Positions 3,001 to 21,048 of a stretch of 64,000 nucleotides of DNA are shown piece by piece. The notes beneath the pieces are model-generated. The model saw only the letters and a list, made by a program, of their open reading frames with translations, had not been told where the DNA came from and ran no database searches. The position numbers and the translations under genes are program-made. Origin of the DNA: Nemertoderma westbladi (lineage: Eukaryota; Animalia; Xenacoelomorpha); contig JAUCBJ010009041.1 in NCBI GenBank assembly GCA_032718475.1, positions 1 to 64,000 of the forward strand, written 5' to 3'. Each line of letters starts with the position of its first letter. Positions within the stretch are counted from its first letter, which is position 1.

Positions 3001-3864
3001 TTTTTTATGTTCAAGTTTGTAGATGTTGCAAGTAGAACTGTCAGCTAAATAAAGTCCAAAACCCATGACCTTTAACAGCATGTGTTTCTCCTGAGGAAGT
3101 AAATACTTCTTATCTTCATACATACTTACGCAGCAATTGACAATGTCAATCAAAAGATCTTCGTACCCTGGAATGGATTCCAGGTTCTTCTTCAAAGTTT
3201 GGGTTATTTGATTGTGTTGGGCGAGAAACATGGCGAGTTTCTGCGATTCGCCTTGGCCTCTTTCATTGAGGCGACGGGAGCACTGCGACGCCCTTCGGTA
3301 CAACGCGTAGTCGTTCTTTATACTCGACTTCATGTTCTTGAGAGAGTCGAGGACTGCAAACATGTTGATAAACTTTCCCATTGTTAGAAAGTATGTCTCC
3401 GAAACAAAATCTTTTCGACGCTCTTGATGGCAGATTTTCCTCGCCTCTTGGCAAAATCTTTCAATGGCGATGTCTTGGAAATACATAAAATTCTTTAGTG
3501 GTTTCAATTCGGGCTCGAATATTTGAAGAATCTTGTCGTAGATCTCCATTCGATCCGGTTGATCGTTTGATTTGATCGCTGGGATCGCCCTGCTGCAAGA
3601 CCGCCATGTATACAGCATGATGGCATAGTCCTTGCCTTCCTCCAACAGCTTGTTGAGTTCGGATTGGACAACCGCCTCCTCTTTGTATTTTGCCATGCCG
3701 GTTATAAATCCGGAATTATCTTGGAAGTTTGTATCGAAACTAGCCTGGTAGAGAACAGCAGCACCCGACGCCTGGATACATGGTTGCCTTTGGTCCCCAC
3801 TCTGAAACTCTACCAATAGTTCAATGTTACTAATAGCATCAGCCAATGTCACTTCCGCCGTCAT
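40..3864 (-). CDS. CYFIP: Cytoplasmic FMR1-interacting protein (CYFIP/Sra1/PIR121), WAVE regulatory complex subunit; single coding exon, about 1274 aa
   Basis: Full-length uninterrupted ORF with family motifs MLYTWRSCSRAIP, VVPLYGDMQI, EDYERATRYNY, GPSSTQLYMVRTMLESLI, DLSQLWFREFFLE, IQFPIEMSMPWILTDHIL, EFHRLWSALQFVYC. First ATG is at 3864; the ORF track starts at the preceding GTG. Confidence 0.97.
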   Translation of the reverse strand: MTAEVTLADAISNIELLVEFQSGDQRQPCIQASGAAVLYQASFDTNFQDNSGFITGMAKYKEEAVVQSELNKLLEEGKDYAIMLYTWRSCSRAIPAIKSNDQPDRMEIYDKILQIFEPELKPLKNFMYFQDIAIERFCQEARKICHQERRKDFVSETYFLTMGKFINMFAVLDSLKNMKSSIKNDYALYRRASQCSRRLNERGQGESQKLAMFLAQHNQITQTLKKNLESIPGYEDLLIDIVNCCVSMYEDKKYLLPQEKHMLLKVMGFGLYLADSSTCNIYKLEHKKQLSLSKIDKFFKNLQVVPLYGDMQIELSNYIAMGHNYKDNQSKWTCTHSSVGLQYNLVEALIRIREEHDKYISDFAKHSNDVFITQKSRNSSDEYNKELYVLSHRGVMLLSKWSSKIMELYSWKLVHPVDKNACPGSSEDYERATRYNYTSEEKLALIEVIAMVKGVQALLLRMEGVLMEGILRTIYNELQTFVQHQLRDAIRYTVRKKKTWAKAILLSIRETAADWLNGQEPVDDLCLKGEPDLKSSPFTIPLNRRSAGPSSTQLYMVRTMLESLIIDRSAGASKKPLRKDLPTACLPTMDEFHAASFFYTHMMNFNRTVIECCDLSQLWFREFFLEMTMGEHIQFPIEMSMPWILTDHILETKDSSMMEYVLYPLDLYNDSAQYSLTTFKKQFLYDEVEAEVNLCFDQFAYKLSEQIFQHYKCQAASILLDQRFSSECANFQPPIVINYPASNRYSTLLKQHHVQILGRSIDLNHLLTQRIRALLMSSLEYAITRYEGVDITGIIDLYVLIDVNRMTHKILSEFMKLPDFDAMFKEADNNVLAPYGRVTLHTLMEVNSDFLPNYCFNNLTNRFVKQKFLPTDDTRQKPPNRPPQYVYGSKQFNAIYGVITDQYTGFIGPHHFRVMARMLGYQGISIIVKEILEIVNNHIISNILESVTLLHMYMPRNCKMQSYSYGSSGIFAYYTAHLNDVLKYPAIRTEIFNFFREFGNAILFCFHVEQNLTFAEVSDLLMAAPFYNNIDVMFETRKEKEELYRKQELEVKYKNLHIIKMIETSGTPEQLRTAREAELLTNERLCCGAELLRNERFFPGLSIFEKVLQQVKQFLTDRSWKGRPPPNGVMNIDETEEFHRLWSALQFVYCMPVGEHEIPPEELFGDGLNWAGCVIISLLDQRRRFELLDFCYHLLYVQRHDGKDGTELSGGGKAGGLAAALPRMIKRIQRVKDLNGRIFCTLSKYKHSGTQVIPVTMVKGFQPPIHQSMTGTNL

Positions 3865-4329
3865 CACTGATCTGAATACTATATCGTATTAATAATCGAT
3901 CAATAACTGTATCAAATAGATCCGATACACTTTAAAATATTATCAATTTATCATACTAAACAACATAAAGCATAGTTAGTAGGCCTTCACAGTATATATT
4001 TGGATGGGTTGTAGTAGTTAGGTGGCTATTCAATTATTATTTGAGTAAATAAAAAAACAAATAAAATTCCAAATTTAAAACAGTAATAATCAGAAATTGT
4101 AATGAGAACTATTGAAAGTTTAACAAAAATACAATTTATAGTATAGCAGTGTATTTATAGTATAAACAGTACTACAATAGTAAATTCCACAAAATTGCCT
4201 TTTTCACCAATTTAAAAATTACATTTCAAGAAAAAAAAATTGAACTTGAAAAGGAGATGAGATGAAAACTAATCGGCCTCCTGCATTGCAACTGCACATT
4301 GAGATAAATTCCGTACCGGCTTAACAAAA

Positions 4330-4725
4330 AGACTGTCACCACCATGCAATCCACAATTAGCAAGCCCAATGAAGCATATCATCTTCAAGGCCAGTGTCCT
4401 TTAGGAGGTGTCTCTCAAACGTCTTGGGCTGTCCACCTTTCTCTAAGGGGCTGCCAAAGCACAAGATTGTGAGGTGAGACGGCGAATACAATCTCCTCCA
4501 AAGCGGAGGCGGATTTGTTCTAGTGTCAAGCTTGGGGGAACCAATGAGACACCTCCAATGTTATATAATGTATGGTTGGAGATGTGTGCATTGTACTTGA
4601 CACAGTGAACCCGACGTAGCATTCTTATGAATGTGCCATACAGAGATGTGGTGTCCTCAGCAGTTAGAGCCCAGCGTGGACTCCCATAGAGGAGTACTGG
4701 AAGTATTATGTGGTGAAAAGTAATT
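4330..4725 (-). mobile_element. Degenerate 3' fragment of an RTE-clade non-LTR retrotransposon ORF
   Basis: Translation ILPVLLYGSPRWALT...GTFIRMLRRV...HISNHTLY...IRLRFGGDCIR, followed out of frame by GGQPKTFERHLLKDTG. This matches the post-RT region of RTE elements (LLYGxExW..RMLR..RL.xAGH..GRP..D.G). Confidence 0.8.
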
Positions 4726-4894
4726 AGTGGAAAATAATTTCGTATTACTGTACATGACACACAAATAGCTTTCTCCCATCACACATTGATGTATAATAAA
4801 CCTTTTGGACGCAAGCCCTGGCTCGGCAAATTATTCATCTTGGGGTGACGGCGAGGGGCATAAAAGCGCATTATTTTGTTTTAATATAAATAAA

Positions 4895-5030
4895 AGTTAT
4901 ATTTACCTTCTGGTTCCACAATCTATCTTATTGACCTTCGATCTTTGCGATCGCTCGGTAAATAAGTGACCTTGGAGTGAGCAGTAAATGAACCCACTTT
5001 TATATACTGTAAAATAAATAGTAAATATTT
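4895..5030. repeat. Imperfect palindromic dispersed repeat (Crypton-like non-autonomous terminus), diverged copy
   Basis: Shares tatttacc...cgctcggtaaat...gtaaat...aataaatagt.aatat with 7797-7930; family assignment is from resemblance only. Confidence 0.45.
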
Positions 5031-5920
5031 GAATATCATATTATTTTACACACCCAAACATTATACTATCATTATTTCAAATTAATGAAATTATTACTAT
5101 CAGTGTTAGTTGAGGTTTGTGTTACAGAATTTACATGGTTGGTTTTTTACAAATTGCCCTCTCTAAATATTACAGGCACGAGTTGGGATAATTACACGAA
5201 CGAGGAAAGTGAGCGAGTTAATTAAATATGAAACAAGTTATGTGGACCGTCGTGCTATAATCAGTGTACTTATGTGCCAATACTATACCGGTACGGGATG
5301 TTGTTGTGTAAAGATCCATTCTGACATAACCCTAAACTAGAAGGTGAATTACTCTGCATTAGTGCCAAATAATATAGTTCGCTTTAGTGCTGACTGAGTA
5401 ATTACTAAGTCTTTCAATTAATTCTCCCCCCTTAAAGTATATAGGTAAATTTAAATTTAGATAAGACTATGGTTAAGGATTTATCCCTGGAAAATAGATA
5501 ATTAATATTTTAGTGTCATTTTCTGATTACACGGACCCCCATCCCTCCCCACATTTCAGGTATTCTACAAATCATTATCATGTTGCTTGAAATTTGAAAC
5601 ACAACCACTTAAAAACACCGTCGATGTCTCATTAAAACAACATTTCCTAAGATACATTCATATTATTAACAATTTGATTATAAAAATTAATATTTTACAC
5701 GTTTTTGGTGCCACCAGCCTCTTCCTCGTTAATTTTGGCACATAAATCAAATGCTTTCTATTAATGCGCATTACATGAACACTAAATATATTTAATCAAA
5801 CATCGCAAACGTTCAAGTTGTATGATTTTTATGAATAAAGTAACCATAACACTTTCCCGGAGTGATCGCTAGAGGGAGCTATGATACGGTGTCTATAAAT
5901 AGATTGGCCAATAATTATTA

Positions 5921-6265
5921 TCAGAGAGTCCCCTAAAAGTAACAGTAGTGAGAGAGTGGCCCCTCAGAGAGTCCCCTAAAAGTAACAGTAGTGAGAGAGT
6001 GGCCAATCAGAGAGTCCCCTAAAAGTAACAGTAGTGAGAGAGTGGCAAATCAGAGAGTCCCCTAAATGTAACAGTAATGAGAGAGTGGCCAATCAGAGAG
6101 TCCCCTAAAAGTAACAGTAGTGAGAGAGTGGCCAATCAGAGAGTCCCCTAAAAGTAACAGTAGTGAGAGAGTGGCCAATCAGAGAGTCCCCTAAATGTAA
6201 CAGTAGTGAGAGAGTGGCCAATCAGAGAGTCCCCTAAAAGTAACAGTAATGAGAGAGTGGCCAAT
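5921..6265. repeat. 43-bp minisatellite, about 8 copies
   Basis: Unit tcagagagtcccctaaaagtaacagtagtgagagagtggccaa. Confidence 0.97.
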
Positions 6266-6293
6266 GTGATGTTTTTATAGCCACATAAATGGT

Positions 6294-6380
6294 TTGTGGG
6301 GCGAACCACGAAAGTAAGCGAGCTTAGCATGTGGTCGGTGATGCTGTCGTTCTGTTAGTTGTTCTGTCGTATAATTATTC
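6294..6380 (+). mobile_element. End fragment of a Helentron/DINE-1-like non-autonomous element
   Basis: gtggggcga(a/g)ccacgaaagtaagcgagcttagcat is shared with 29681, and both are followed by tctgt-rich microsatellite-like sequence. Confidence 0.5.
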
Positions 6381-7459
6381 TCCATAAGGCTAACATTTTA
6401 GTTTGAAATATAAAAATCTGTTATAATAATAATATAATTGTTGTATTTAATTAATATCGTGGTTCACATTGAACAGTGTAAATTGTTAATCGCGGTTTTC
6501 ATTGAAACATCTCGACTTGTTTTATTTATTACAAAAATAAGAGTGAATTTGTCTTATCACTTCTTGTGCGCGATTGTATTGAATTCATGACAATTGCTGT
6601 TATTATTATTAATCAATTGACACCTCGACTCCTCTCTGAGACTCCGACTATTCTATCCGATAGAATAAAATAATCATTTCGCTAACTGCTCTCTATCTTC
6701 TATAATCACAACATCTTTTATAATTCATTAGATGATTACAACATAATAATTACAGTTTGAAGTTGTCTAGAAAATTTCTCGTACACCACCAGGACTACCC
6801 TCACACTAATTTATTATCAGACAGAATAAAAAGCTTTTACTTGACTCGTACTGTCTCCTACGACTTGCTTCACGGGCCGCTAGGCCCGTCTCTAGTTTGA
6901 CTATAGTTTGTTTCACAATATTTGGGAAAATATAAGTTATTGATCACATAAGTAGCTAGGCAACAACTGTATGTATGCCTATAAAATAAATTTATTGTTA
7001 AAATTAACATTATTTACCGCTCAGTCAATGGGCTAGCTGTAAATAGATTTGCATTATTTACCTAGGTAGAAGGGGATTATTGCTCATCAATCAGTCAACT
7101 TTGCACTGTAATAAATTTTATTTATTTAATGAGTAGCTACGACTAGTAAACTGACATCAAGTAAGTAATTATCTTCAAATATATAATTATGTTCCAGAAT
7201 ATTGTGTATTTATTTATTAAATATAATAAATGGCCTGTCCTGCAGGCTGTAACGGATGCTAATACCTACACTTTTTGAACGCCCGTATCTCAGCTATTTC
7301 TCAACAACATTAATAGTTATTTACAAATTTGGAATCCTTTCAACAACACCTTTTCCTTGGTATCAACAAATCACAATAAGGACGAATAATAACTGCGGTG
7401 CGACTGGTGCAATGTTTAATTACTTATTAAACAATAATATGTTTTGAATGGGAGAATCT

Positions 7460-7702
7460 TTAAGGCTCGTTAAGCCAAGGAATGCCTTTTCACCACCATG
7501 GTGATCTTCCACAGTAAACCCTTCCACTATGTTTCCCAAGTTGCCTTGGTTCCCATTTATCAACCACTGAAGGATGAAAGCCGGGGTTGGGCTAGGCTGC
7601 AGCATTTAAAGCACTGTGCCCAAACAGTACTGCCCCATCTAGGGATCGAACCAGGGCTCCCTAATTGGAAGCCCAGTAATGTCACCACTAGACCAAGCTG
7701 CA
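7460..7702 (-). mobile_element. tRNA-derived SINE with a Nin/Deu-like central domain
   Basis: Minus strand: A box tggtctagtgg, B box ggttcgatccc, then ctttcatccttcagtggttgataaatgggaacc, related to the core of the SINE at 19210. Confidence 0.8.
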
Positions 7703-7796
7703 GTATATGTATGTATAATATGTTTTAATAATATAATAATAATAATAATAGGATGATTTTTAACAATAAAATTACATGTTGTGCGATAAATAAAAC

Positions 7797-7930
7797 ACGT
7801 TATTTACCTTTACGTCCCTCGATCTGACTTATTTACCCTCTTCGCTGCGCTCGGTCGGTAAATGACAGATCTCGGGACGAACGGTAAATAAAGTATATAA
7901 TATTTACCGTACAATAAATAGTTAATATTG
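7797..7930. repeat. Long imperfect hairpin repeat (Crypton-like non-autonomous terminus)
   Basis: Nested inverted arms tatttacc/ggtaaata, cgtccc/gggacg, gatctg/cagatc, atttacc/ggtaaat; related copy at 4895. Confidence 0.5.
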
Positions 7931-8129
7931 CGTAGTTACACTTATAAACAAAATGTTCCAGAACGTTGTGTGTATTTTTTTTTTTTTAAAGAGAATGACT
8001 TTCTCCTGCGAACGTTAATTGTTGCCATATTTGAACGCCTGTGTATCAAGTGTTTGTAGCAGCTGTATCAACTGTTTGTATCAGTTGAATCAGCTGTTTG
8101 TATCAGTTGTATCATGGTCCGTGTCATTA

Positions 8130-8350
8130 GAAAATGATACGGAATTACGTGTCGAAGGCTTTTGTAAGTTCGAGAAAAGCCTCGTTTAAATTGCTATGAA
8201 AAAAATAATAGTAGAATTGTTAATTTTTTTTAAAGTAGAATTTACATTATTCAGTGGCCTTATATTTAAACCAGTAATGTTGAAAAAATCCTGGACCATA
8301 TCCTAAAATATTCAACTATTTCAAACAATTCAATTAAATATATGAAAATT
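8130..8350 (-). mobile_element. Highly decayed LINE reverse-transcriptase remnant (CR1/L2-like)
   Basis: Minus strand reads EAFLELTKAFDT*, matching the RT motif FLDLxKAFD; stops and frameshifts around it, extent uncertain. Confidence 0.5.
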
Positions 8351-8929
8351 CCAACCAAATAAAAATACATTCAATGGATGAAATTATTTTTCAATAATTA
8401 TTTACGTCGAATTTATCCTTGAAATTCAATATTGTCTGTTTGGTTACTTTTTGAGAGTTTGGCCTGTGAGAATGTTATAAAACTAATTTAAATACCAAAA
8501 CTAATTTAATAGACGGATCTAATACGAATATTGTACAACCGGAATTAATATTGTACGAATTAACAACATTACATCGACATCTATAATCAAACATTAAACA
8601 ATAATTTTAAATACAAAGTTCAAACGAACTGAACTTATTGTGTTTTTGGATAGCAATATTTGTATTATCAAACCAAATGTATTGTATATTCCATAAAGCA
8701 GATACGCGGTGGCAAACAACATTCACCAGTAACAGAGCAAATAATTGATTTACGAGATGTGAAATCAATGTCTGGGTTATTTTATAGCAGACCTATCTAT
8801 ACACCTGTGTCCTGCTATTGACGCAATATCAACAGACTATTTCTTTCTTCGTTTGTAAAATAAGTAATTATGAAAGTACAGTTTTTGTAAAAATATTCGT
8901 TAGTCGTTGTATATTGTGAAACAAAACTC

Positions 8930-9125
8930 CGGGGGCAACCGAAGGTTACGTCTAACGGATGTTACCTATAAGGTACCACATTAACTCCCAAGGTTGAACA
9001 CTCTACAACTATCCAACCCTTTACCCCCTCCCCCTCCCAAGCAGCAGAAGCCAAGGTCTCATAGTACAGCAGGGTTTACGTGAGTACTACTATCGACTAA
9101 AGTGTCTTGCTTAAGGACACAACAA
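8930..9125 (-). mobile_element. Headless SINE fragment related to the SINE at 37498-37745
   Basis: Shares gcaacc(c)gaagg, acctataagg, taactcccaaggttga and atccaacccttt with the 37.5 kb element; carries the common SINE motif gttgtgtccttaagcaagacacttt on the minus strand. Confidence 0.65.
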
Positions 9126-9188
9126 AGCAAAATATATAGGCCTACAGCCTTTTGTCGAATTTGAAAAAGCGCCGTGGAAACTATTGTG

Positions 9189-10937
9189 AAAGTAGTTAAG
9201 GAGCTGTATCCCCTCCCTCGTGTGTAAAGTAGTTAAGGAGCTGTATCCCCTCCCTCGTGAGTAAAGTAGTTAAGGAGCTGTATCCCCTCCCTCGTGTGTA
9301 AAGTAGTTTAAGGAGCTGTATCCCTTCCCTCGTGTGTAAAGTAGTTAAGGAGCTGTATCCCCTCCCTCGAGTGTAAAGTAGTTAAGGAGCTGTATCCCCT
9401 CCCTCGTGTGTAAAGTAGTTTAAGGAGCTGTATCCCCTCCCTCGTGTGTAAAGTAGTTTAAGGAGCTGTATCCCCTCCCTCGTGTGTAAAGTAGTTAAGG
9501 AGCTGTATCCCCTCCCTCGAGTGTAAAGTAGTTAAGTAGCTGTATCCCCTTCCTCGTGTGTAAAGTAGTTAAGGAGCTGTATCCCCTCCCTCGTGTGTAA
9601 AGTAGTTAAGGAGCTGTATCCCCTCCCTCGTGTGTAAAGTAGTTAAGGAGCTGTATCCCCTCCCTCGAGTGTAAAGTAGTTAAGGAGCTGTATCCCCTCC
9701 CTCGTGTGTAAAGTAGTTTAAGGAGCTGTATCCCCTCCCTCGTGTGTAAAGTAGTTAAGGAGCTGTATCCCCTCCCTCGAGTGTAAAGTAGTTAAGGAGC
9801 TGTATCCCCTCCCTCGTGTGTAAAGTAGTTAAGTAGCTGTATCCCCTTCCTCGTGTGTAAAGTAGTTAAGGAGCTGTATCCCCTCCCTCGTGTGTATAGT
9901 AGTTAAGGAGCTGTATCCCCTCCCTCGTGTGTAAAGTAGTTTAAGGAGCTGTATCCCCTCCCTCGTGTGTAAAGTAGTTAAGGAGCTGTATCCCCTCCCT
10001 CGTGTGTAAAGTAGTTAAGGAGCTGTATCCCCTCCCTCGTGTGTAAAGTAGTTAAGGAGCTGTATCCCCTCCCTCGTGTGTAAAGTAGTTAAGGAGCTGT
10101 ATCCCCTCCCTCGTGTGTAAAGTAGTTAAGGAGCTGTATCCCCTCCCTCGTGTGTAAAGTAGTTAAGGAGCTGTATCCCCTCCCTCGTGTGTAAGTGGTT
10201 AAGGAGCTGTATCCCCTCCCTCGTGTGTAAAGTAGTTTAAGGAGCTGTATCCCCTCCCTCGTGTGTAAAGTAGTTAAGGAGCTGTATCCCCTCCCTCGTG
10301 TGTAAAGTAGTTAAGGAGCTGTATCCCCTCCCTCGTGTGTAAAGTAGTTAAGGAGCTGTATCCCCTCCCTCGTGTGTAAAGTAGTTTAAGGAGCTGTATC
10401 TCCTCCCTCGTGTGTAAAGTAGTTAAGGAGCTGTATCCCCTCCCTCGTGTGTAAAGTAGTTAAGGAGCTGTATCCCCTCCCTCGTGTGTAAAGTAGTTTA
10501 AGGAGCTGTATCCCCTCCCTCGTGTGTAAAGTAGTTAAGGAGCTGTATCCCCTCCCTCGTGTGTAAAGTAGTTAAGGAGCTGTATCCCCTCCCTCGTGTG
10601 TAAAGTAGTTAAGGAGCTGTATCCCCTCCCTCGTGTGTAAAGTAGTTAAGGAGCTGTATCCCCTCCCTCGTGTGTAAAGTAGTTAAGGAGCTGTATCCCC
10701 TCCCTCGTGTGTAAAGTAGTTAAGGAGCTGTATCCCCTCCCTCGTGTGTAAAGTAGTTAAGGAGCTGTATCCCCTCCCTCGTGTGTAAAGTAGTTAAGGA
10801 GCTGTATCCCCTCCCTCGTGTGTAAAGTAGTTAAGGAGCTGTATCCCCTCCCTCGTGTGTAAAGTAGTTAAGGAGCTGTATCCCCTCCCTCGAGTGTAAA
10901 GTAGTTAAGGAGCTGTATCCCCTCCCTCGTGTGTAAA
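9189..10937. repeat. 37-bp minisatellite, about 47 copies
   Basis: Unit aaagtagttaaggagctgtatcccctccctcgtgtgt with occasional +t and single-base variants. Confidence 0.98.
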
Positions 10938-11043
10938 AATTAACTTTGCCCACATTAGGATGACAATGGCGGTTAAAATATAAAATAAAATGATCATACA
11001 TTCATTATCCACAGTTTCAACTGAAATAAATACTTTCAGTTTA

Positions 11044-13707
11044 CTATTCATAAGTGATGAGATATTCTGGGTACATTTGATAGTTATAGAAAATAACATA
11101 AGTATTGGGATCCACCAGATCGTCTATTAAACAATCAAACAGCGACGCATCGGTTATCTTTGATATCGCCGATATATCGGCCGCTTCTATCTTAACATTG
11201 GGCCGACGTGAAGGCGGTTCCTCGTCCTCTCTCCCTGTCTCTAGCGGTTTCTTTATTACTTTCTGGGAGGGTTTACCTTTCGGTTGAACCTGGCCGCCTG
11301 ACTTGTTGGTTTTCTGACGATCGGCGCGTTTTAACGGCTCGGTTTTGTTAGCCAACCCCCATGGCGACTTCCTCGGAGTGGAGCCATCGTCGTCGCCTCG
11401 CCTCGCAGGAGTGGTGCTCCTATCCCGCGGGACCACGAGGAACGGACTCCGTTGCGCTCGACTCACATCGCCAACGTAGCAACGCGCGATCAGCACCCGA
11501 CACACGTACATGTGACCCGCGTAGAGATCAGCGTACGTGTCGCCGGCGTCGCGAGTAAATGAAACCCCGAGGGAATCCCCCTCCGCTCTCATATAGTTCT
11601 TCGACTCGTAAGCAGCTCGTAAACCCCAAGTATTGATCAATTCGCACATATCGCCGCGGGTCCAATGGAATAATATTTTCTCTCTGACAGCGCTCCCAGA
11701 TACAATCTTCTCTAGACGTTTCTTCGCGGCGTTGAATGCGTCCTTCAGCATTGGGTTCTCGATTCGCTCGATCTTCATCACCTGGTAGAAGTTGTCCCAC
11801 TCCGGGATGCTGTCCTTGAACTGTCGCTCAACCTGTCGGTACTCCTCGGACTGCTGTTGCAGACTGATGACACGGAAGTCCGGGTCGAACGCTTCCGGTA
11901 CTTCCAGGTCCCGGGGACCCCCGTCGCCTATCGCTTTTACTTCTCCTTGCCTCCCGGCTATCGCGCCACCCAGACCCTGAGCCCCATACACCGCCGCTGC
12001 GTCCTGCTGCCATTGGATGAACTCGGGGTCGTTTTCGGTCACTTCGATATTAAACCAAATCCTTTCCGGGACAACGTTGTTGAACTCGCCCATTACCTTG
12101 TGGAAACCCGCCTTTCGGGCAACCATAGGCAATCTATGGAACTCTAAAACAGGAGAAGTAGCATCAACAATCTCCCGTGTTTCTTCTTCAGCAATGACGT
12201 CATCAATTTTTCTGGTTATCACCTCTACATAATTCTTCTTACCGACGACAGCGTTGGGGCTTGGTACCTGGATGGACACCGCGTTGGGCAGATTATCTTC
12301 GAATATATTTTTATTTTTGTCGAACATGTCTGTAGATGCGATGTATGAGACAGGGGGTAGCGATGGGGGTGGGGGGTGTTGCAATGCAGTAGTCAGCGCA
12401 GTTCGTGTTCCCACCACGCAATGAGAGGTACTGGTGTTGGTTTTAAACAGTTCTATATTCCGCTGCAATAATGCATCGTACAATTTTACAGGTTCCAACG
12501 CCACTTCTAGGAAATTTTTCGTTTCTTCAAGTTCGCGTACTTGTTTGTCAACTACGAGGTCCAGATTGGTTTCTATCCTGTCATGGATTTCTTTGATGTG
12601 AGCTTGTATCTGATTGTACATGTCCTCTAATGTATCTTTTGTCTGCACAGCTGACTCCTTTAAAGTGGTAACTCTGTCCCCCAAACCCGAGATCTTTCGC
12701 TCCATCAAATTCATTCTCTTCATCACGCGACTTCGCAGGTGATTGACTTCAGTATTGTACCCTTGAATGAACTTGGGTATGATGGAGGACCACTTGTGTT
12801 CCGTCAACGAATCAGATGACTTCATGTGCAAAGGTTCACAAGAAGTGCACATGAGCACATCGCATGTGACGCACACTCGCACTATCTCTTTGTGATGCAA
12901 CGGGCACGTGTTCACCATCAGGTTATCCAAATTCGCAGCATCTTTATTTTCGATACGTTTAGCTTTATTATTCTTAACAGCCAACTCGATAACGTTGTGG
13001 CTCTGAAATACCTTCATAACCTTATGATGCGCGTGGCAGGTGTCGCACAACATAATGTCACAATCGCGACACAGGAATATGGCGGCTTTCGGGTGCGACT
13101 CACAGTTTCCGCAAACACGGCGGTAACCCTCAGAGTAATAGAAATGTACAACGTTGATAGCCAAGTAATTTAGAGGCAATTTTCCAACTTGTCCTTCCGG
13201 CAAAACGTAATTTTTATGGCATATTGGACAACTGGGAGTGGCGTCCACTTTTCCCACCAGCGTATCGATATGAGCGTTGACGCAAATTTCGCAGATGCTG
13301 TGCAAACACGGTAGCAAACGAGGTATGCGACTGGCTCCGTAAGTTTCCTTACACTCGGGACACACAATCAGAGGATCCTTCGTCTCATCTTTACGCAACT
13401 CAACATCCGATCTGTTAGACCGCACAGATCCCGGTTTGCTGTCCATATCTTCCCACCGTTCAGGGTCGACTTCCCCTGTTGCCTCTGAACCTTGTATCGA
13501 CCCTTTACGTGACCCGCCTCTTACAGACGTCCTACTTCCAGCTACACTACCCGCCCTACTTCCAGCTACACTACCCGCATTCGATTCGGATTTCTTATTC
13601 TCCACTCTCTTCCCATTACCATAATTTACGCCATTTCCAGAAACTTTATCATTGTTCATCAGATTGGCTGATTGTCTCCTACTCTCCTGTTTTTCAGTTT
13701 CGCTCAT
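11044..13707 (-). CDS. TRIM/RBCC E3-ligase-like protein with a C-terminal PARP (ART)-like domain, 887 aa, single coding exon
   Basis: RING (CPEC..LPCLHSICEIC..CPIC), B-box 1 (CGNC..CRDCDIMLCDTCHAHH..H), B-box 2 (CPLH..CVTCDVLMCTSC..H..H) and a coiled coil. C-terminus SEEYRQVERQF..KIERIENP..EKILFHWT..MYVCRVLI..FDCLIDD..YVIF..QMYPEYLITY resembles PARP7/12/14-type catalytic domains. Confidence 0.9.
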   Translation of the reverse strand: MSETEKQESRRQSANLMNNDKVSGNGVNYGNGKRVENKKSESNAGSVAGSRAGSVAGSRTSVRGGSRKGSIQGSEATGEVDPERWEDMDSKPGSVRSNRSDVELRKDETKDPLIVCPECKETYGASRIPRLLPCLHSICEICVNAHIDTLVGKVDATPSCPICHKNYVLPEGQVGKLPLNYLAINVVHFYYSEGYRRVCGNCESHPKAAIFLCRDCDIMLCDTCHAHHKVMKVFQSHNVIELAVKNNKAKRIENKDAANLDNLMVNTCPLHHKEIVRVCVTCDVLMCTSCEPLHMKSSDSLTEHKWSSIIPKFIQGYNTEVNHLRSRVMKRMNLMERKISGLGDRVTTLKESAVQTKDTLEDMYNQIQAHIKEIHDRIETNLDLVVDKQVRELEETKNFLEVALEPVKLYDALLQRNIELFKTNTSTSHCVVGTRTALTTALQHPPPPSLPPVSYIASTDMFDKNKNIFEDNLPNAVSIQVPSPNAVVGKKNYVEVITRKIDDVIAEEETREIVDATSPVLEFHRLPMVARKAGFHKVMGEFNNVVPERIWFNIEVTENDPEFIQWQQDAAAVYGAQGLGGAIAGRQGEVKAIGDGGPRDLEVPEAFDPDFRVISLQQQSEEYRQVERQFKDSIPEWDNFYQVMKIERIENPMLKDAFNAAKKRLEKIVSGSAVREKILFHWTRGDMCELINTWGLRAAYESKNYMRAEGDSLGVSFTRDAGDTYADLYAGHMYVCRVLIARCYVGDVSRAQRSPFLVVPRDRSTTPARRGDDDGSTPRKSPWGLANKTEPLKRADRQKTNKSGGQVQPKGKPSQKVIKKPLETGREDEEPPSRRPNVKIEAADISAISKITDASLFDCLIDDLVDPNTYVIFYNYQMYPEYLITYE

Positions 13708-15437
13708 TTTTAGTCCGTGTCTCTACAACAACTGGTAATTATTATATTTATAATTGGAATACAACTAGTATTAATTGAGTTAATTGAGTTAGCGGACATC
13801 TATATTAAGTAAAAAAACGAGAATTTCATGTCCTCTCAGGGGTCCGTAAAAAGGTAATAATATAACAGCCTATATAGTTAATTTAAACCAAGACCTTCAA
13901 TATAACAAACTTAAATATAATAAACCTGATATATAACAAAACCCAAGTTTACTATAATATAATACATATTTAATCATAATTGAGTTATATATATATATAT
14001 AAAGGGTTGTTATTCAATAATGATTATATTTTTGGCAGGAAACATAATGCATAAAATTATTTATGGTATATATATTTTGGCAGGTAGATGTTGCCAGGCA
14101 ACCTAACCCACCATACTGTAGGTTGATAGCGATAATATATATTTTAAATAAGTAATTTAATTATTGAATTTAATGTAAGTCATATGGTGGGTGACCTTTA
14201 AGGCGTACGGAAAGTGCAGATAATAATCAGCCTGTGTATGACCTTGTCCTATTGCAGCCGACTTGTGATAGGAAAAGAGGAGCCAATGACATTCCTTGAC
14301 GTCTCTGCTAAAAGACACTGATCTTGTCTTGATAATGCATATGAAATGTGGATGAATAACTTTTACATGTCTTTCATTGGAGGTAGAAAAGTGTGTTAGT
14401 TTTTAATAAATTTGATAACTCTTATCGATATTTCTTAAATACCGGTAGATAAATTGATAACAATTATAAAGCTTGTACAATCACAAGAAACACTAGTAAA
14501 TTAAATTCAAGCCATTTTGATATTAAAATATAAACTAATTACGAGATAAATATATAGTTGATAACATGATGTAAATAACAAATATCAGCTACTAACGGTA
14601 ACGTATTAGGTAACAGCAGACAGGTGATAAGTAAGGTTTAGTCCAGTATCGGATATCGGAAGGCGTTATCAGGGCGTAATTCAGAAAAACTTGAAAAAAA
14701 ACAATAAAAACAGAAAAGTAACAAAAACCGTTTTAAACAAATCGATTTTCGTATTCTTTCAACACGAAGTGTAAATGGTCTATCGACTAATAGCAACAAA
14801 TGACGTAAATAAAGGTGATTTCAGTCAGCAATATCCCATGTTTGTGGAGTTTACAAACACAGAACCATTACGAGAGCGGCGGCGCGTAGCTACAATAACG
14901 GCACTTCCACGGGACAAAGTATATTGTTATGTTATTTACATAAGGAGAAATTAGGTACGTGACTGAAGCAGCAGTGAAACGTAGGAATGGAACCAATAAG
15001 TTTTAGTTTTAGACAATAAACAACATCTGTAACCAAAAAGAACTAAATATAATTTAGTTAAACAATTGTGGTAATAAAACGTCTCTTATTCAATAAAAAT
15101 GTACGGCAGTGCCACGGGAAATAAAATGGAGAATAATATTTCTACTCGCTCCACATGTTTTTATAAATATCAACTATTTTAATATAAATATAAGTTGTAA
15201 TTTAAATCTATAAAAAGTTCGTAAAAATTGTATTTCTTACGCAATAAAAATAATTATTAAACAAAAATAACGGGTGGAAAAAAATAGTATTTATAATTTT
15301 ATATTTATATTAAAATATTTAAATATATTTTTATTAACAGATGTCGAGGCAACGTTATATGAAAGAGGATTTCTATATTTATTTTATAAAGGTAACAGTT
15401 TGTTTTCCTCTGTTCCGACTCCTGGTTAGTTCTGATG

Positions 15438-15890
15438 GCTGTAGTTTAGTAGCGGCAGCTACAACAGGTTCAACTGCTGTAGTTTAGTAGCGGCAGCTAC
15501 AACAGGTTCAACTGCTGTAGTTTAGTAGCGGCAGCTCCAACAGGTTCAACTGCTGTAGTTTAGTAGCGGCAGCTACAACAGGTTCAACTGCTGTAGTTTA
15601 GTAGCGGCAGCTACAACAGGTTCAACTGCTGTAGTTTAGTAGCGGCAGCTACAACAGGTTCAACTGCTGTAGTTTAGTAGCGGCAGCTACAACAGGTTCA
15701 ACTGCTGTAGTTTAGTAGCGGCAGCTACAACAGGTTCAACTGCTGTAGTTTAGTAGCGGCAGCTACAACAGGTTCAACAGCTGTAGTTTAGTAGCGGCAG
15801 CTACAACAGGTTCAACTGCTGTAGTTTAGTAGCGGCAGCTACAACAGGTTCAACTGCTGTAGTTTAGTAGCGGCAGCTACAACAGTTTCA
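15438..15890. repeat. 38-bp minisatellite, about 12 copies (probably in the HSF 3' UTR)
   Basis: Unit ctgtagtttagtagcggcagctacaacaggttcaactg. Confidence 0.97.
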
Positions 15891-15942
15891 ATCTGTTTCG
15901 ATTCTGTACTGACCTAGTCAGAGGATCTGTTGGGCTAATAAC
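15877..15942 (-). CDS. HSF: Candidate terminal coding exon of HSF (VISPTDPLTRSVQNRNRLKLL*)
   Basis: Acceptor ttgttgttttag|G; phase 0 matches donor GAG|gttagt at 17515. Alternatively the gene stops at 17497. Confidence 0.4.
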   Translation of the reverse strand, partial: VISPTDPLTRSVQNRNRLKLL

Positions 15943-16320
15943 CTAAAACAACAAAATATCAACTGCAGTGCTACTGAAACATTATCCAAATGGTGATAAG
16001 GAAAGTATAATATTAATACAGGAAAGTCTGACATGCGGTTGTTAATTAAAAACTTTCATCTCGTACCAAATTAGCGCAGTGGAGTTCGGGTTATCAATGT
16101 AAAGGCCGCTCGTTCGATTTTGTGTCAATTTTGTAAGTATTCGAAGCAAATGTATGGCGTAGGGGTAGGGATGTAGGCGTAGGGACATACTGAGAAATAG
16201 TATTGGAAATAAATTGGAAAATATGTCGCACTGGCGATTTGGCAGTGCAAAATTAATTCCATACAAATAAATATAATTATAAATGAATTGTTGTGGGGTG
16301 GGTGACGGCGAATTAAATGT

Positions 16321-16562
16321 ATGTTATAAGTACATTATGATAAAATGCTCTCCATAGAGAGAAATATCAACCGCCCCTATTGGGGCTCGAACCCGGTACC
16401 AAGGTTTCAAACTCCCGGTTATCATCAGCAGAGTGTGTGTCCGAAGACCACTGAGCTACCAGGGCGGTAGGATATTTATTCGCTATGGAGTGGGCTATCA
16501 TATTTAGGCCTTTTTCAGTCACTCATAGGAAAGTACAACGTTATTATTCCCGTGCTCTGCCA
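16321..16562 (-). mobile_element. About 240-bp pol III/tRNA-like element with a hammerhead core, copy 1
   Basis: Near-identical reverse complement of 16702-16940. Confidence 0.75.
16391..16434 (-). ncRNA. Putative minimal type I hammerhead ribozyme, copy 1 (one stem I mismatch)
   Basis: Minus strand actctg-CTGATGA-taaccgggagttt-GAAAC-cttg-GTA-ccgggt. Confidence 0.5.
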
Positions 16563-16701
16563 GAAATTATTATAATAATTATATAATAATAATAATAATT
16601 ATTATTATTATTATTAATTAACAAGCATGGCCGGCATACGTGGTATCAGTGGTTTCTACAACACTGAATATAGTTATTCTTTGAGGCATGGTTGCCATTA
16701 T

Positions 16702-16940
16702 TGGCAGAGCACGGGAATAACGTTGTACTTTCCTAGGAGTGACTGAAAAAGGCCTAAATATGATAGCCCACCCCATAGCGAATAAATATCCTGCCGCCCT
16801 GGTAGCTCAGTGGTCTTCGGACACACACTCGGCTGATGATAACCGGGAGTTTGAAACCTAGGTACCGGGTTCGAGCCCCAATAGGGGCGGTTGATATTTA
16901 TCGCTATGGAGAGCATTTTATCATAATTGTACTATAACAT
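16702..16940 (+). mobile_element. About 240-bp pol III/tRNA-like element with a hammerhead core, copy 2
   Basis: A box TAGCTCAGTGG (16803-16813), B box GGTTCGAGCCC (16868-16878), closing stems gccgccc/gggcggt and ccatagcg.ataaatatc/gatatttatcgctatgg. Confidence 0.75.
16827..16870 (+). ncRNA. Putative minimal type I hammerhead ribozyme, copy 2
   Basis: Stem I actcgg/ccgggt (6 bp, one G-U); core CTGATGA 16833-16839; stem II aac/gtt with a U-U first pair; GAAA 16853-16856; palindromic stem III ACCTAGGT; GUA triplet, predicted cut after 16864. Confidence 0.62.
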
Positions 16941-17195
16941 ATTATAATAAATATAACCACTATCCCATTAAACCATTTTTAGCAGGTCGGAGCAACCCGC
17001 CCCCCCCCCCCCCCCCCTCACTCTAATTTTTTTCAAATTTCAATCAAATGCTACGAAATTTGTTATGAATGTAGTTTTTCTTATCTGCTGGCCTGGCTGG
17101 AATTTTCAATTTTAAAAGTATACAAACCGTTGAAAAATGCCTATTTAGCAATATTTAACAATCTCTGTTGACTTTATATTTATTCTTTGGAATGT

Positions 17196-17276
17196 AATTT
17201 TGGTAATATTTCCGAAAGTTTTCCAGATAATGATATTATCATTATCTGGAAAACTTTCGGAAATATTACCAAAATT
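17196..17276. repeat. Perfect 81-bp palindrome (40-bp arms, 1-nt centre)
   Basis: aattttggtaatatttccgaaagttttccagataatgata-t-tatcattatctggaaaactttcggaaatattaccaaaatt. Confidence 0.95.
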
Positions 17277-17514
17277 CAAAGGCATTTGGAGTTTTGACAC
17301 GTAAATCCATATAAATCTATTTTTTATGATAATATAGAGCGTAATGAAGAAACAAGATGCTTTTAAAAGTATCAAGATAGACAGACAGAGCAAACCAAAT
17401 AGTTGGGAGGGAGACTCCTAACGCAATCAAAATTAAACTCAAAGAAAATAATAACTATAACGCTACTGAAGTTATTCTAGTGGCCTATTACATTAGCTAT
17501 ATATATCCACTAAC

Positions 17515-18520
17515 CTCCACTAATGGGGTATCCAGTTGTTGTGTTCCTTCAATGTTGCTTTCATGGGAAAGAGGTTCTACAATAGAAGGCGATGTGAGTA
17601 TCATATCATATGGGACAGATGGGACAGTGGTATATGGGTCAGGGGGGACAGTGGCATATGGGACAGATGGGACAGTGGTATATGGGTCAGGGGGGACAGT
17701 GGCATATGGGACAGATGGGACAGTGGCATATGGGTCAGGGGGGACAGTGGCATATGGGACAGTGGCATATGGGACAGATGGGACAGTGGTATATGGGTCA
17801 GGGGGGACAGTGGCATATGGGACAGATGGGACAGTGGTATATGGGACAGATGGGACAGTGGCGTATGGGACAGATGGGACAGTGGTATACGGGTCAGGGG
17901 GGACAGTGGCAAGAGGGGCTGTGTTAAATGGGACAGTTGCCTGTGGAACAGTGACATATGGGACATAAGGGGCAGTGTTATGTGGGACAAGGGAGATGAC
18001 GTCATGAGGGATATTAAGGCGACCGTTCGCAGCTGATAATAAAGGGTCAACAGTATCGATGTTAAACCAGTCTGGATTGGCCATATCATTAGTTTTGGGG
18101 GGCGCAATTGGAACAGAGGTTGGTCCGGATGCGGCGACAGGCGGACACGTTGGGGGGCCAGATAAACCAGCCAATCGGATGTGAGGTTCGGTGTAAGCTA
18201 CCACATCCTTGCAGTAGGATGTAAACGAATTCACGTCGACGTTATTGGAGGAGAGCGGCTGGGCGGTGGATCCATCCGGGGTTCGGATCCTCCTATTGAT
18301 GGAGAGCGGCTGGGCGGTGGATCCATCCTGGGTTCGGATCCTCCTATTGATGGAGAGCGGCTGGGCGGTGGATCCATCCTGGGTTCGGATCCTCCTATTG
18401 ATGGAGAGCGGCTGGGCGGTGGATCCATCCTGGGTTCGGATCCTCCTATTGGTGGAGAGCGGCTGGGCGGTGGATCCATACGGGGTTCGGATCCTCCACT
18501 TGGATCCAGGTACATCGGAA
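17515..18520 (-). CDS. HSF: Large Pro/Thr/Ser-rich exon of HSF containing two in-frame tandem repeats
   Basis: Acceptor ttgttttgtttcag|T (phase 2); frame open for over 1 kb; donor GAG|gttagt, or read-through to a stop at 17497. Confidence 0.65.
17608..17965. repeat. In-frame 24-bp (occasionally 15-bp) coding repeat, PY(A/T)TVP(SV/PD)
   Basis: Alternating tatgggacagatgggacagtgg.. and tatgggtcaggggggacagtgg.. units. Confidence 0.9.
18250..18497. repeat. In-frame 51-bp coding repeat, about 5 copies (RRIRTQDGSTAQPLSIN)
   Basis: Unit ggagagcggctgggcggtggatccatcctgggttcggatcctcctattgat. Confidence 0.93.
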
Positions 18521-19208
18521 CTGAAACAAAACAAACAATAATAATATTATATTATTAGACTTAATCAAATTTACCAGTTAAGTCAATCAGATTTAGTGTT
18601 CCATATGAGTGAATAGTGGAACTCATTCTATTATTAATTGTTCTTATATGGCCAAGTATTGTTTTAGGCGAATGGTGGTTTTATATCATTAGATTCGATT
18701 TTTATGCTAATTTCGAATCGGACATCAGAATATGGGTCAATGCCAACCATATTGACCAAGTCACGTACGGGACAAAAAATATACAAAAATGTAAATCATT
18801 GAGAATGAATGGTCGGGTGGCTTTGATAATTAGATTTCCGAATACACTATAATCGGTCTCCTCCTGCTGTGATACACTCCAACCACAGTTTGTTATAGAA
18901 AAAGATACTTAGAATTAATAAAAAAATAGTCACTTACGGGACATTTTTCAAATTTGGTTAATGTGATTAAAGATTACGGGCTCATTTTGACTATTAAAAT
19001 TACAATTTGGAAATTTTTGGTGGTTCATATGAATCAATTGCGTGAGCGAGTCCAAAATGGTCCAAAAAAGTGTCCCATACTTAACGGAGGTTTTCTATCA
19101 GAAAACGCGAACTCATAAAGATATAGATCACCACATCTATTTCTCAGATAGTTTTGCCATAACTATCAGTTTTGCCATAACTGCCAGTTTTGCTTTAATC
19201 TTTAGGTT

Positions 19209-19485
19209 CCACCTTGGTGTAGTGGTTGCATTGAATTCACATCTCCTGTAGGTCGTGGGTTCGATCCTCACATGGGCCAGGGCAGTTTTCGTTTCGGCAC
19301 GAATGCTTTAATGGGACCAGCCAGGGCGCATCTCTGCCTTGCATCCTTAAGTGGTAGCTAAATGAGTACTAGAGTTTCCTCTGGGGAGTAAAGTTCTGGG
19401 GGGACCGCACGGGGGGGGCAGACTTTGTGCGTAATCCCTGGCCTAGTGGCCGAAGAAAATTTACTTTTTTACTTTACTTTTTTTT
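19209..19485 (+). mobile_element. tRNA-derived SINE with a Nin/Deu-like core and simple-repeat tail
   Basis: A box tggtgtagtgg, B box ggttcgatcc, core ccttgcatccttaagtggtagctaaatgagtac, tail tttactttttactttactttt. Confidence 0.8.
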
Positions 19486-19672
19486 GCCATGTATGGGTTG
19501 TATCGGTGAGACTGTTACGTAAACATTTATTTGGCCAGGTTGAAAAAACTGCCATGTCCCATAACGTGACGCCCTGTCCCATACTTGACATTGTGTTGGG
19601 GGCAGAAGTTAATCAGGGTCTAACTTACATTTAATTAATGGTTGGGGGGGGGGGGGGGGGGGGGGGGCTTAC

Positions 19673-19855
19673 CAGTCACAGATAAACTGTAACCTGCTCC
19701 TTCCACTTAATTGACAACAACTATTTGTGGAAAGGGTTTTGAGATTGGGACAGTAGTTGAGATTGGGACAGTAGTTGAGAGTTGGATGTAAGTTGGGAAT
19801 GGAACAGGAGTTGGCAGTGGGAAGGACGATAAACTGGCTTGAATTAAACTTACTT
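19673..19855 (-). CDS. HSF: Candidate symmetric (phase 2-2) 183-bp exon of HSF
   Basis: ctcctccgtactag|A ... CTG|gtaagc; open in the frame required by both neighbouring exons; skipping would preserve frame. Confidence 0.45.
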
Positions 19856-20627
19856 CTAGTACGGAGGAGTTGTTTGAAGAATTTTATGATTTGTTTTTAA
19901 TTGGAAAATAAATGTCAAAATTTATAATAATCGTTTCCATGTAAATTCCTTCCCATACCCTATCAATAAGTCACATTACATGACATCAAAAACTGACTAT
20001 TTACATTTTCAAATTAATTTTTTGATATAAAATAACGATTTTCAGTTGACCAAATGCAACAGTTTTGTGTATCACATTGTTATTAACAGGACAAAAAATA
20101 TTTAGCCCCACTTTTCACTGCCAAGTTTATCACAAAGTGAAACTTTATGTTGTCACTGGAAGAAAAATGTCTTATCCGTGACATAATTTTTAATTTGTTA
20201 CTTCATATTTACAAGAATATGGACAGAAAGTACGAAAAAAATACTTTTACATTTCCCATCCGTGACAAAAAAATGTTTTAAATTTTTTCATTCCAGAACG
20301 TTTCTCCCAATAAAAGCCAATAAATTTTTGGGACACTTTCTGGTTTCATATGCAGAAATTATCGCTCTTTCTAACCATCAATATGGCGGATTCTCAAAGT
20401 TAATTTCAAAATTCAATAAATTTCAAAAATCACATACGGGACATTGGTCAATAATATGGTTGGCATTGACCCATATATAGCCAAGTTGAGGTATAGGAAA
20501 ATCGATTTTGTAGACCAAGGTATACAATAATACTCCCCGAGGAATACAGAATGTTCAAGGCTAATATTAAATACGTATAATTTGTATTAGAAATAAATAA
20601 ATTAAATGAATGAACTATGTTGCTTAC

Positions 20628-20924
20628 CTTGTAGGTTGCCTAGTAGCCGGAATGTTGGGACCCACCAATGATGCATTGTCAGAAGAGATAGCTTCCATTA
20701 TATCATTCAAAGAGTCGTAGTTACTAACATAATTAGTGTTCGTGGGTAGTGATTGGTTATTCACATTGCCTGTAAGTTGATACTGATTGGATGAATTTCC
20801 AGGGAATTGCAGGGTAGAATTATTATAGGAAACTAATTTCCGGCCGGACGTAGTTGTAGAATATTGGGTTGTCGGGTTAAACTGGAGAGACAAATCGGTG
20901 GAATCCGCGGCAACCAACGGATAA
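20628..20924 (-). CDS. HSF: HSF internal exon, 297 bp, Asn/Ser/Thr-rich (phase 2-2)
   Basis: Strong acceptor atttctttctccgcag|T and donor AAG|gtaagc; open frame YPLVAADSTD...RQPT. Confidence 0.75.
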
Positions 20925-21048
20925 CTGCGGAGAAAGAAATACATAAGTAATAATTTAGAGTTACAGCGAGTTATCAACATTGGGAGTTAGTGTGACGTCC
21001 TCCATGACTCATAGGTAACATCCAAGTGAGAGGAGACTTCTGCGATAT

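What the first reader, a model, noticed from the sequence alone, without database searches (positions are those of the whole stretch)
11044..13707. TRIM E3 ligase fused to a PARP-like domain: possible single-chain ubiquitin/ADP-ribose immune module
Seen: RING, two B-boxes and a coiled coil followed by a PARP7/12/14-type ART fold. Known: standard TRIM C-terminal domains are PRY-SPRY, NHL, PHD-bromo, MATH, ARF, FN3 and filamin, not PARP. In vertebrates, E3 ligases pair with inactive PARPs as separate proteins in antiviral defence (TRIM25-ZAP/PARP13, DTX3L-PARP9). Inference: this is a Rosetta-stone fusion of those two activities in an invertebrate. I cannot confirm that the architecture is unreported.
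Basis: partly seen in the sequence, partly recalled or inferred. Interest (0 to 1): 0.72.

Follow-up and report, generated by a model that had tools for sequence, protein, structure and literature searches.

The report
TRIM ligase with likely dead PARP
An intact, intron-free animal gene joins the front half of a TRIM ubiquitin ligase to a PARP-type domain that has lost key NAD+-binding residues, so it likely uses a switched-off enzyme as a grip or bait for tagging targets; this rare pairing also appears, likely independently and with the catalytic residues intact, in an acorn worm.

Summary
An 887-codon single-exon ORF (11044-13707, minus strand) encodes RING, two B-boxes, a coiled coil and a PARP10/12/14/15-type ART domain (E 1e-17 to PARP14) split by a 93-residue basic insert. 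Two other samples keep the frame open, with 8 silent and 6 replacement changes (pN/pS about 0.21).

The ART domain is probably a pseudo-enzyme: H-G-T reads H-W-T, the triad Tyr is Ser, and 1 of 12 conserved columns in the NAD+-binding segment survives, against 18 of 24 around it. The RING keeps all eight zinc ligands but has Glu at a normally hydrophobic E2-contact site (0 of 130 relatives). A decayed filamin domain may lie in the middle (unproven).

The architecture is rare, not unique: 1 of 144 TRIM hits, an acorn-worm gene model (XP_077991496.1), is a TRIM-KH-WWE-PARP with an intact site, likely a separate fusion. Nine paper searches found no TRIM-PARP, and earlier scan notes hold none, though they record other TRIM domain captures. 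Best reading: a TRIM ligase using a dead PARP fold as its binding or bait module. An immune role is untested.

The parts
11044..13707 (-). Single-exon ORF, 887 aa, TRIM fused to a PARP-type ART domain
   Evidence: frame open in runs X2, X3, X4
13393..13707 (-). Ser/Gly/Arg-rich N-terminal extension (residues 1-105), with a 24-nt tandem duplication at 13531-13578 that is one copy shorter in the other samples (in frame)
13219..13362 (-). C3HC4 RING (116-163); eight zinc ligands present; Glu118 at the usual Ile/Val/Leu position; His164 at the linchpin position
12985..13113 (-). B-box 1 (about 199-241)
12790..12906 (-). B-box 2 (268-306)
12487..12774 (-). Coiled coil (about 312-407), predicted dimerisation helix
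   Evidence: TRIM profile aligned to residue 407; only weak helical Pfam hits
12028..12321 (-). Possible degenerate filamin-type Ig domain (about 463-560); unproven
   Evidence: Atlas lead, score 0.77; spacing matches 38 of 50 filamin domains; profile scores not significant
11452..11886 (-). ART domain, first block (608-752), with the eroded donor loop and NAD+ strand at about 696-727
11659..11667 (-). His681-Trp682-Thr683, in place of the H-G-T motif
11173..11451 (-). 93-aa basic, Pro-rich insert inside the ART domain (753-845; 22 Lys+Arg, 13 Asp+Glu), predicted disordered
   Evidence: no joint across it in any laid contig
11047..11172 (-). ART domain, C-terminal block (846-887), well conserved; Thr869 at the third triad column

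Best explanation
This single-exon animal gene encodes a TRIM whose C-terminal slot holds a PARP14/12-type ART domain that has lost key NAD+-binding residues, so it likely works as a dimeric ubiquitin ligase that uses a catalytically dead PARP fold as its binding or bait module rather than as a second enzyme. Shown: the domain order, the open frame, the excess of silent changes among alleles, and the pocket substitutions. Inferred: (1) the coiled coil dimerises the protein as in other TRIMs; (2) the pseudo-ART domain and its basic insert bind RNA or a protein partner, or a pathogen protein aimed at host PARPs; (3) clustering on that target brings RINGs together and leads to ubiquitin transfer; (4) the gene arose when a TRIM, probably of the filamin-bearing TRIM2/3/45/71 group, captured the catalytic end of a clade-3 PARP, which then lost its chemistry but kept its fold. 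A defence role against viruses or transposons is the likeliest setting by analogy and is untested.
For: Domain matches. Among 134 ART domains of fetched relatives the Gly after the triad His is 97% conserved and the triad Tyr 100%; here they are Trp682 and Ser (712 or 716 by register). In one register 1 of 12 conserved columns in segment 696-720 is kept, against 18 of 24 in the flanking core, counted from the table; the C-terminal strand block is also well kept. The model is confident in the core and under pLDDT 50 at 699-727. Alleles: 8 silent, 6 replacement, one in-frame 24-nt deletion, no frameshift listed; pN/pS 0.21, binomial p 0.005. All eight RING ligands are present and His is counted among the usual linchpin residues (PMC11992055 passages). 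Precedents: ZAP, RCD1 and TASOR lack two or more NAD+-binding residues and are inactive, TASOR's domain binds ssRNA weakly and needs an extended loop (PMC7532188 passages); ZAP's inactive PARP domain is under positive selection and adds to restriction (PMC4038475 passages). Other TRIMs among the hits carry ADP-ribose-system modules: PARP (P0015), Deltex (P0044, P0163), macro (P0136).
Against: No activity, ligand or partner was tested. The triad His681 and a candidate stacking Tyr (725 or 729) remain, and in the second register more pocket residues have near equivalents. The organism is fast-evolving (its CYFIP is at best 57% identical to named animals), so some divergence is background. Glu118 is seen in 0 of 130 matched RINGs, where 115 have Ile, Val or Leu, so ligase activity is in doubt. 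No orthologue was found to show that the losses are old and fixed. The filamin remnant failed three shuffle tests (84 of 2000, 16 of 150, 28 of 200 shuffles scored as well). The allele count rests on 14 sites, and the table was cut, though piece totals suggest at most about one ORF site is missing.
Confidence: 0.55

Rival explanations
1. Both halves are pseudo-enzymes: the protein is a non-catalytic scaffold or a regulator that pairs with an active TRIM or PARP, like TRIM pseudoligases.
For: Glu118 at a site that is Ile/Val/Leu in 115 of 130 relatives and Glu in none; His rather than Arg at the linchpin (5 of 130). That this position contacts the E2 is recalled from BRCA1 Ile26, not from a call. 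Pseudoligase TRIMs that regulate active paralogues are described (PMC11992055 passages).
Against: Zinc ligands and the Pro before the last Cys pair are intact; His counts as a usual linchpin; 13 of 130 relatives also lack Ile, Leu, Val, Met or Thr at that site.
Confidence: 0.22
2. A true two-enzyme chain that both mono-ADP-ribosylates and ubiquitinates, through a remodelled NAD+ pocket. This reading fits the acorn-worm protein P0015 better than this one.
For: His681, Thr683 and the C-terminal strand block are kept; Gly-to-other changes occur in about 3% of relatives; PARP9's activity is debated (PMC10057411 passages).
Against: Trp at the Gly position, Ser at the triad Tyr in both registers, loss of the glycine-rich donor-loop motif, low model confidence at 699-727.
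Confidence: 0.1
3. A young or decaying chimera (for example a retrocopy) with no function of its own.
For: No intron; no orthologue or close paralogue found; both catalytic domains carry odd substitutions; long low-complexity stretches.
Against: An 887-codon frame open in all three samples; pN/pS 0.21; both halves are far from any relative (34% or less in the tree sets) yet keep their structural cores; the neighbouring CYFIP gene is also intron-free.
Confidence: 0.08
4. An endogenous viral gene rather than a host gene.
For: Single exon; CpG observed/expected 1.14 against 0.83 for CYFIP.
Against: No viral contig match; viral structures match far more weakly (best E 1.1e-03) than human PARPs (4.5e-09); the only other long non-repeat ORF in the window is a host CYFIP.
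Confidence: 0.03

Closest known systems
Glandiceps talaboti XP_077991496.1 (P0015; unnamed RefSeq gene model)
   Same: RING, two B-boxes, coiled coil and a C-terminal PARP14-type domain in one chain.
   Different: Its linker holds KH-like repeats and WWE; its H-G-T and Y-F-A motifs are intact; no insert. Only about 25% identical to this protein. Its ART groups with a Saccoglossus PARP14-like protein (100/99) and its TRIM part with two Glandiceps TRIM-Deltex proteins (SH-aLRT 99), which points to a separate acorn-worm shuffle. Its splicing was not checked.
TRIM2/3/45/71-type (class VII/X, Marin subfamily C) TRIMs
   Same: RING-B1-B2-coiled coil; best PDB RING match is TRIM2; 44 of 144 TRIM hits carry filamin, most at the spacing of the candidate remnant. 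MATH capture by this subfamily in amphioxus is described (PMC3503706 passages).
   Different: ART domain in place of NHL repeats; filamin not proven; that paper has no occurrence of 'PARP' in its main text.
ZAP/PARP13 with TRIM25; PARP9 with DTX3L
   Same: An E3 ligase working beside a PARP domain that lacks catalytic residues (PMC4038475, PMC10057411 passages).
   Different: Separate polypeptides; their sensing is done by CCCH fingers or macrodomains, absent here; the PRY-SPRY TRIM25 and the Deltex RING are other ligase types (recalled); orthology not shown.
TASOR pseudo-PARP (HUSH complex)
   Same: PARP fold with a degenerate NAD+ site and an added loop (PMC7532188 passages).
   Different: No RING or TRIM; TASOR did not appear among sequence matches; inactivity is shown for TASOR, only predicted here.
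Dictyostelium DDB0232928 (U-box, macro, clade-3 PARP) and fungal clade-6A PARP-UBCc
   Same: Ubiquitin-system domain and PARP domain in one chain (PMC2964712 passages).
   Different: U-box or E2 fold, not a TRIM; 'B-box' does not occur in that paper's main text.

Membership tests
TRIM/RBCC | RING, one or two B-boxes and coiled coil in order at the N-terminus | tested here: met
TRIM/RBCC | Complete zinc-ligand set in the RING | tested here: met
   C3HC4 pattern matched, residues 116-163
Active RING E3 ligase | Canonical E2-contact and linchpin residues | tested here: inconclusive
   Glu118 in 0 of 130 relatives; His164 in 5 of 130 but an accepted linchpin
Active RING E3 ligase | Ubiquitin transfer in vitro | not testable with these tools
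   needs an assay
TRIM class VII/X (filamin with or without NHL) | Filamin-type Ig domain after the coiled coil | tested here: inconclusive
   position and Atlas lead fit; Pfam none, shuffle tests not significant
TRIM class VII/X (filamin with or without NHL) | NHL repeats | tested here: not met
   no NHL hit
PARP-type ART domain (PF00644) | Sequence and fold match | tested here: met
Active mono-ART PARP (PARP10/12/14/15 type) | His-Tyr-hydrophobic triad with H-G-T and Y-F-A motifs | tested here: not met
   His-Ser-Thr, with H-W-T
PARP14/PARP9 macro-PARPs or PARP12/ZAP CCCH-PARPs | Macro, KH, WWE or CCCH domains before the ART domain | tested here: not met
   no hit in Pfam or with single-sequence probes for macro, WWE, KH
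Pseudo-PARP (ZAP, RCD1, TASOR type) | Loss of two or more NAD+-binding residues | tested here: met
   Gly to Trp, Tyr to Ser, donor loop eroded; criterion from PMC7532188 passages
Pseudo-PARP (ZAP, RCD1, TASOR type) | No NAD+ binding or catalysis shown experimentally | not testable with these tools
   needs an assay
Antiviral restriction factor | Induction by infection, positive selection, restriction phenotype | not testable with these tools
   no orthologue for a selection test

The most novel reading that the evidence does not exclude
TRIM-PARP is an undescribed, recurrently invented TRIM class in invertebrates: an apparently active writer-plus-ligase form in acorn worms and, here, a form whose PARP domain has been turned into a dead bait that catches pathogen proteins aimed at host PARPs, or foreign RNA, and hands them to its own RING, a one-chain counterpart of ZAP with TRIM25.
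Probability: 0.2. Interest if true: 0.75.

Novelty: new variant of a known kind. Interest (0 to 1): 0.48.

Why it matters
ADP-ribosylation and ubiquitination cooperate in vertebrate antiviral defence through separate proteins, and what the inactive PARP domains of ZAP and PARP9 do is still unclear. A natural chain in which a dead PARP fold is the main candidate recognition domain of a TRIM gives a simple test case: whatever the domain binds should be ubiquitinated. With the acorn-worm protein as an intact counterpart, and TRIM-Deltex and TRIM-macro gene models beside them, it suggests that invertebrate TRIMs have sampled ADP-ribose modules more than once. The limits are that it is one gene in one unidentified species, with no orthologue and no functional data.

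Tried and rejected
No whole genome is held for this window, so paralogues and partner genes could not be surveyed. No RNA holder listed among sequencing runs. Word-based homologue search gave 4 hits of 7996 scored, none with both halves. Searching with P0015 gave 193 hits, 120 listed; only P0015 itself had B-box plus PARP. No relative in metagenome contigs (25 pattern matches, none confirmed) or viral contigs. Runs X6, X7 (other organisms) and X8 laid nothing at 80% likeness, which proves no absence; X1 showed one contig only. Single-sequence fold of the ART region failed (pLDDT 36). A two-sequence alignment of P0015 with this protein misplaced the ART domain and was not used. Whole-protein Atlas search gave only TRIM-like clusters under 0.9, none with PARP; this is weak, since only clusters of 50 or more are searched. 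Filamin: Pfam and PDB sequence searches of residues 421-610 gave nothing; three profile tests were not significant; the first attempt crashed before its control. Trees could not place either half (end branches 3.7 and 3.4); the ART tree had 23 rows and lacked PARP7, 9, 10, 11 and 13, the TRIM tree used 36 chosen relatives. The insert as an unspliced intron: no joint seen in contigs, but these cannot show splicing if they are DNA. Rfam over 3900-21000 gave 12 matches, all below gathering score. No complex prediction was run. Supplements of the papers were not read; domain tables there could hold a TRIM-PARP entry.

Full report
Observation. The window holds an uninterrupted ORF at 11044-13707 on the minus strand, 887 residues. 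It lies between tandem-repeat arrays, about 7 kb from an intron-free CYFIP gene at 40-3864. That CYFIP is at best 57% identical to named animal proteins, with amphioxus on top, so the source is a fast-evolving animal without close relatives in the databases. I did not identify it further. Pfam finds a RING, two B-boxes and PF00644 above its cut-off. A profile of 35 TRIMs aligns over residues 110-407 at probability 99.8. The C-terminal region matches PARP14, 12, 15 and 10 catalytic domains at E 1e-17 to 1e-07, in two blocks separated by a 93-residue basic, proline-rich insert. A model built with 30 PARP14-type rows has a confident core and returns human mono-ART PARP structures; because of that alignment it confirms compatibility, not independence.

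Is the gene real? Five runs hold the stretch, from three studies. Leaving out X1, which may be the source, single contigs of X2 and X4 (one sample) span the ORF, and three contigs of X3 cover it with breaks at 11543 and 13685. The 14 listed differences inside the ORF are 8 silent and 6 replacement, against 22% silent sites expected; pN/pS is 0.21, p 0.005. The only listed indel in the ORF removes 24 bases in frame. That table was cut to the best-supported rows, but piece totals leave room for about one more site. Purifying selection is therefore likely. X3 is labelled 'DNA?' by guess, yet it ends in a run of T at 10945, 99 bases past the stop, where the other runs carry satellite, and its depth varies from about 10 to 290 over DNA that is even in the other runs. 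This hints at a polyadenylated transcript in an RNA library, in which case one contig (11544-13685) would carry RING through the first ART block unspliced. No canonical AATAAA precedes the site and amplification bias could give the same picture, so it is a hint only.

The ART pocket. In 134 ART domains taken from fetched relatives, the Gly after the triad His is 97% conserved and the triad Tyr 100%. Here they are Trp682 and Ser; the Ser is 712 in the HMM register and 716 in the E-INS-i register, so the loss holds in both. The third triad column has Thr869, where relatives mostly have Met, Leu or Ile. Counting from the table, 1 of 12 highly conserved columns in segment 696-720 is kept, against 18 of 24 in the flanking core; 20 further columns were unaligned in that run, 17 of them because of the insert, and the C-terminal block was aligned separately and is well kept. 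In the second register a few more pocket residues have near equivalents, which softens but does not remove the result. The model is below pLDDT 50 at 699-727. ZAP, RCD1 and TASOR are inactive with two or more such losses (PMC7532188, passages). I put the chance that this domain is catalytically dead at about 85-90%; this is inference.

The RING. All eight ligands are present. Position 118 is Glu, where 115 of 130 matched relatives have Ile, Val or Leu and none has Glu; 20 of the 150 hits did not match the pattern. That this site contacts the E2 is recalled from BRCA1. The linchpin is His, rare among relatives (5 of 130) but listed as usual in PMC11992055 (passages); PMC12326332 notes weak E2 binding for a His-linchpin ligase (passages). 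Ligase activity is likely but not secure.

The middle region. Residues 463-560 may be a decayed filamin domain. The Atlas returned a filamin cluster first, at 0.77, which is below its reliable range. The candidate first strand lies 182 residues after B-box 2, and 38 of 50 filamin domains in the hits start 176-192 residues after theirs. Three shuffle tests were not significant. I give it about 60%.

How rare? An exhaustive search of 1.84 billion representatives gave 3208 hits, of which 150 were listed. Of these 144 carry the RING/B-box part and one also carries an ART domain: P0015, Glandiceps talaboti XP_077991496.1, RING-B1-B2-coiled coil-KH-WWE-PARP, with intact motifs. A protein with both halves gains score from both, so a common family should have surfaced, but 3058 hits were not seen. 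Its ART groups with a Saccoglossus PARP14-like protein and its TRIM part with two Glandiceps TRIM-Deltex proteins. This protein is an unplaced long branch in both trees, is about 25% identical to P0015 and has a different linker, so separate origins are likely but not proven by a clade test. A Montipora TRIM-filamin-macro model also turned up. All three are database gene models whose splicing I did not check.

Literature. Nine searches found no description; 'TRIM-PARP' has 0 papers. The TRIM survey PMC3503706 has no 'PARP' in its main text and the PARP survey PMC2964712 no 'B-box' (term counts and passages); the latter does describe U-box-PARP and PARP-UBCc chains. I saw passages only of PMC8195603, PMC10450202, PMC9334734, PMC4038475 and PMC10057411, and no supplements. 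The library lacks most subscription journals. Earlier scan notes hold no TRIM-PARP but list several TRIM captures read as baits; I reuse that idea and did not test it.

Mechanism. Shown: architecture, open frame, selective constraint, pocket erosion. Inferred: a coiled-coil dimer in which the pseudo-ART domain and its basic insert take the place of the usual C-terminal recognition domain, bind RNA or protein, and let the RING ubiquitinate the target (0.55). Rivals: double pseudo-enzyme scaffold (0.22), two active enzymes (0.10), non-functional chimera (0.08), viral gene (0.03). The immune setting rests on analogy: ZAP's inactive PARP domain is under positive selection and adds to restriction, and DTX3L with PARP9 acts in antiviral defence. 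A transposon-silencing or developmental role is not excluded.

Verdict. A real, rare and apparently undescribed TRIM architecture; a new variant of a known kind, since TRIMs swap C-terminal domains and ligase-PARP chains are known in other forms. Interest 0.48.

Noticed in passing
window 40-3864, minus strand: Complete, intron-free CYFIP/Sra-1 gene (1274 aa), at best 57% identical to named animals; vertebrate CYFIP genes have many exons (recalled), so this is either a retrocopy or a sign of wide intron loss.
   Followed up: partly
window 10945-10948 and 13685-15400: Run X3 (guessed DNA) ends in a T run 99 bases after the stop codon and shows depth of about 260 over 14064-15105, which is single-copy in the other runs and has no long ORF or Rfam match; this may be an RNA library with a poly(A) site for this gene and an abundant neighbouring non-coding transcript.
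   Followed up: partly
window 13783-13842: A roughly 35-60-base element 80-130 bases upstream of the start codon is shared by many other contigs of the same organism and occurs once in the window: a short dispersed repeat or shared promoter element.
   Followed up: no
window 21049-27431 and 38454-64000: Large satellites (28-base unit, 228 copies; 42/21-base unit, over 25 kb). The 1912-codon ORF at 21732-27470 is a by-product of the 28-base array and has no Pfam match.
   Followed up: yes
window 16320-16941 and 17194-17278: A 226-base inverted repeat (95%) around 170 bases, MITE-like, and a short near-perfect hairpin that draws sub-threshold miRNA matches.
   Followed up: no
proteins P0015, P0044, P0163 (Glandiceps talaboti) and P0136/P0158 (Montipora capricornis): Gene models joining a TRIM front to ADP-ribose-system modules: KH-WWE-PARP with an intact site, Deltex RING-DTC (twice), and filamin-macro. 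P0015 is the better candidate for a two-enzyme chain.
   Followed up: partly
proteins P0149, P0111, P0063: Other unusual TRIM tails among the hits: MIF4G, HSP70 and COR-A domains.
   Followed up: no
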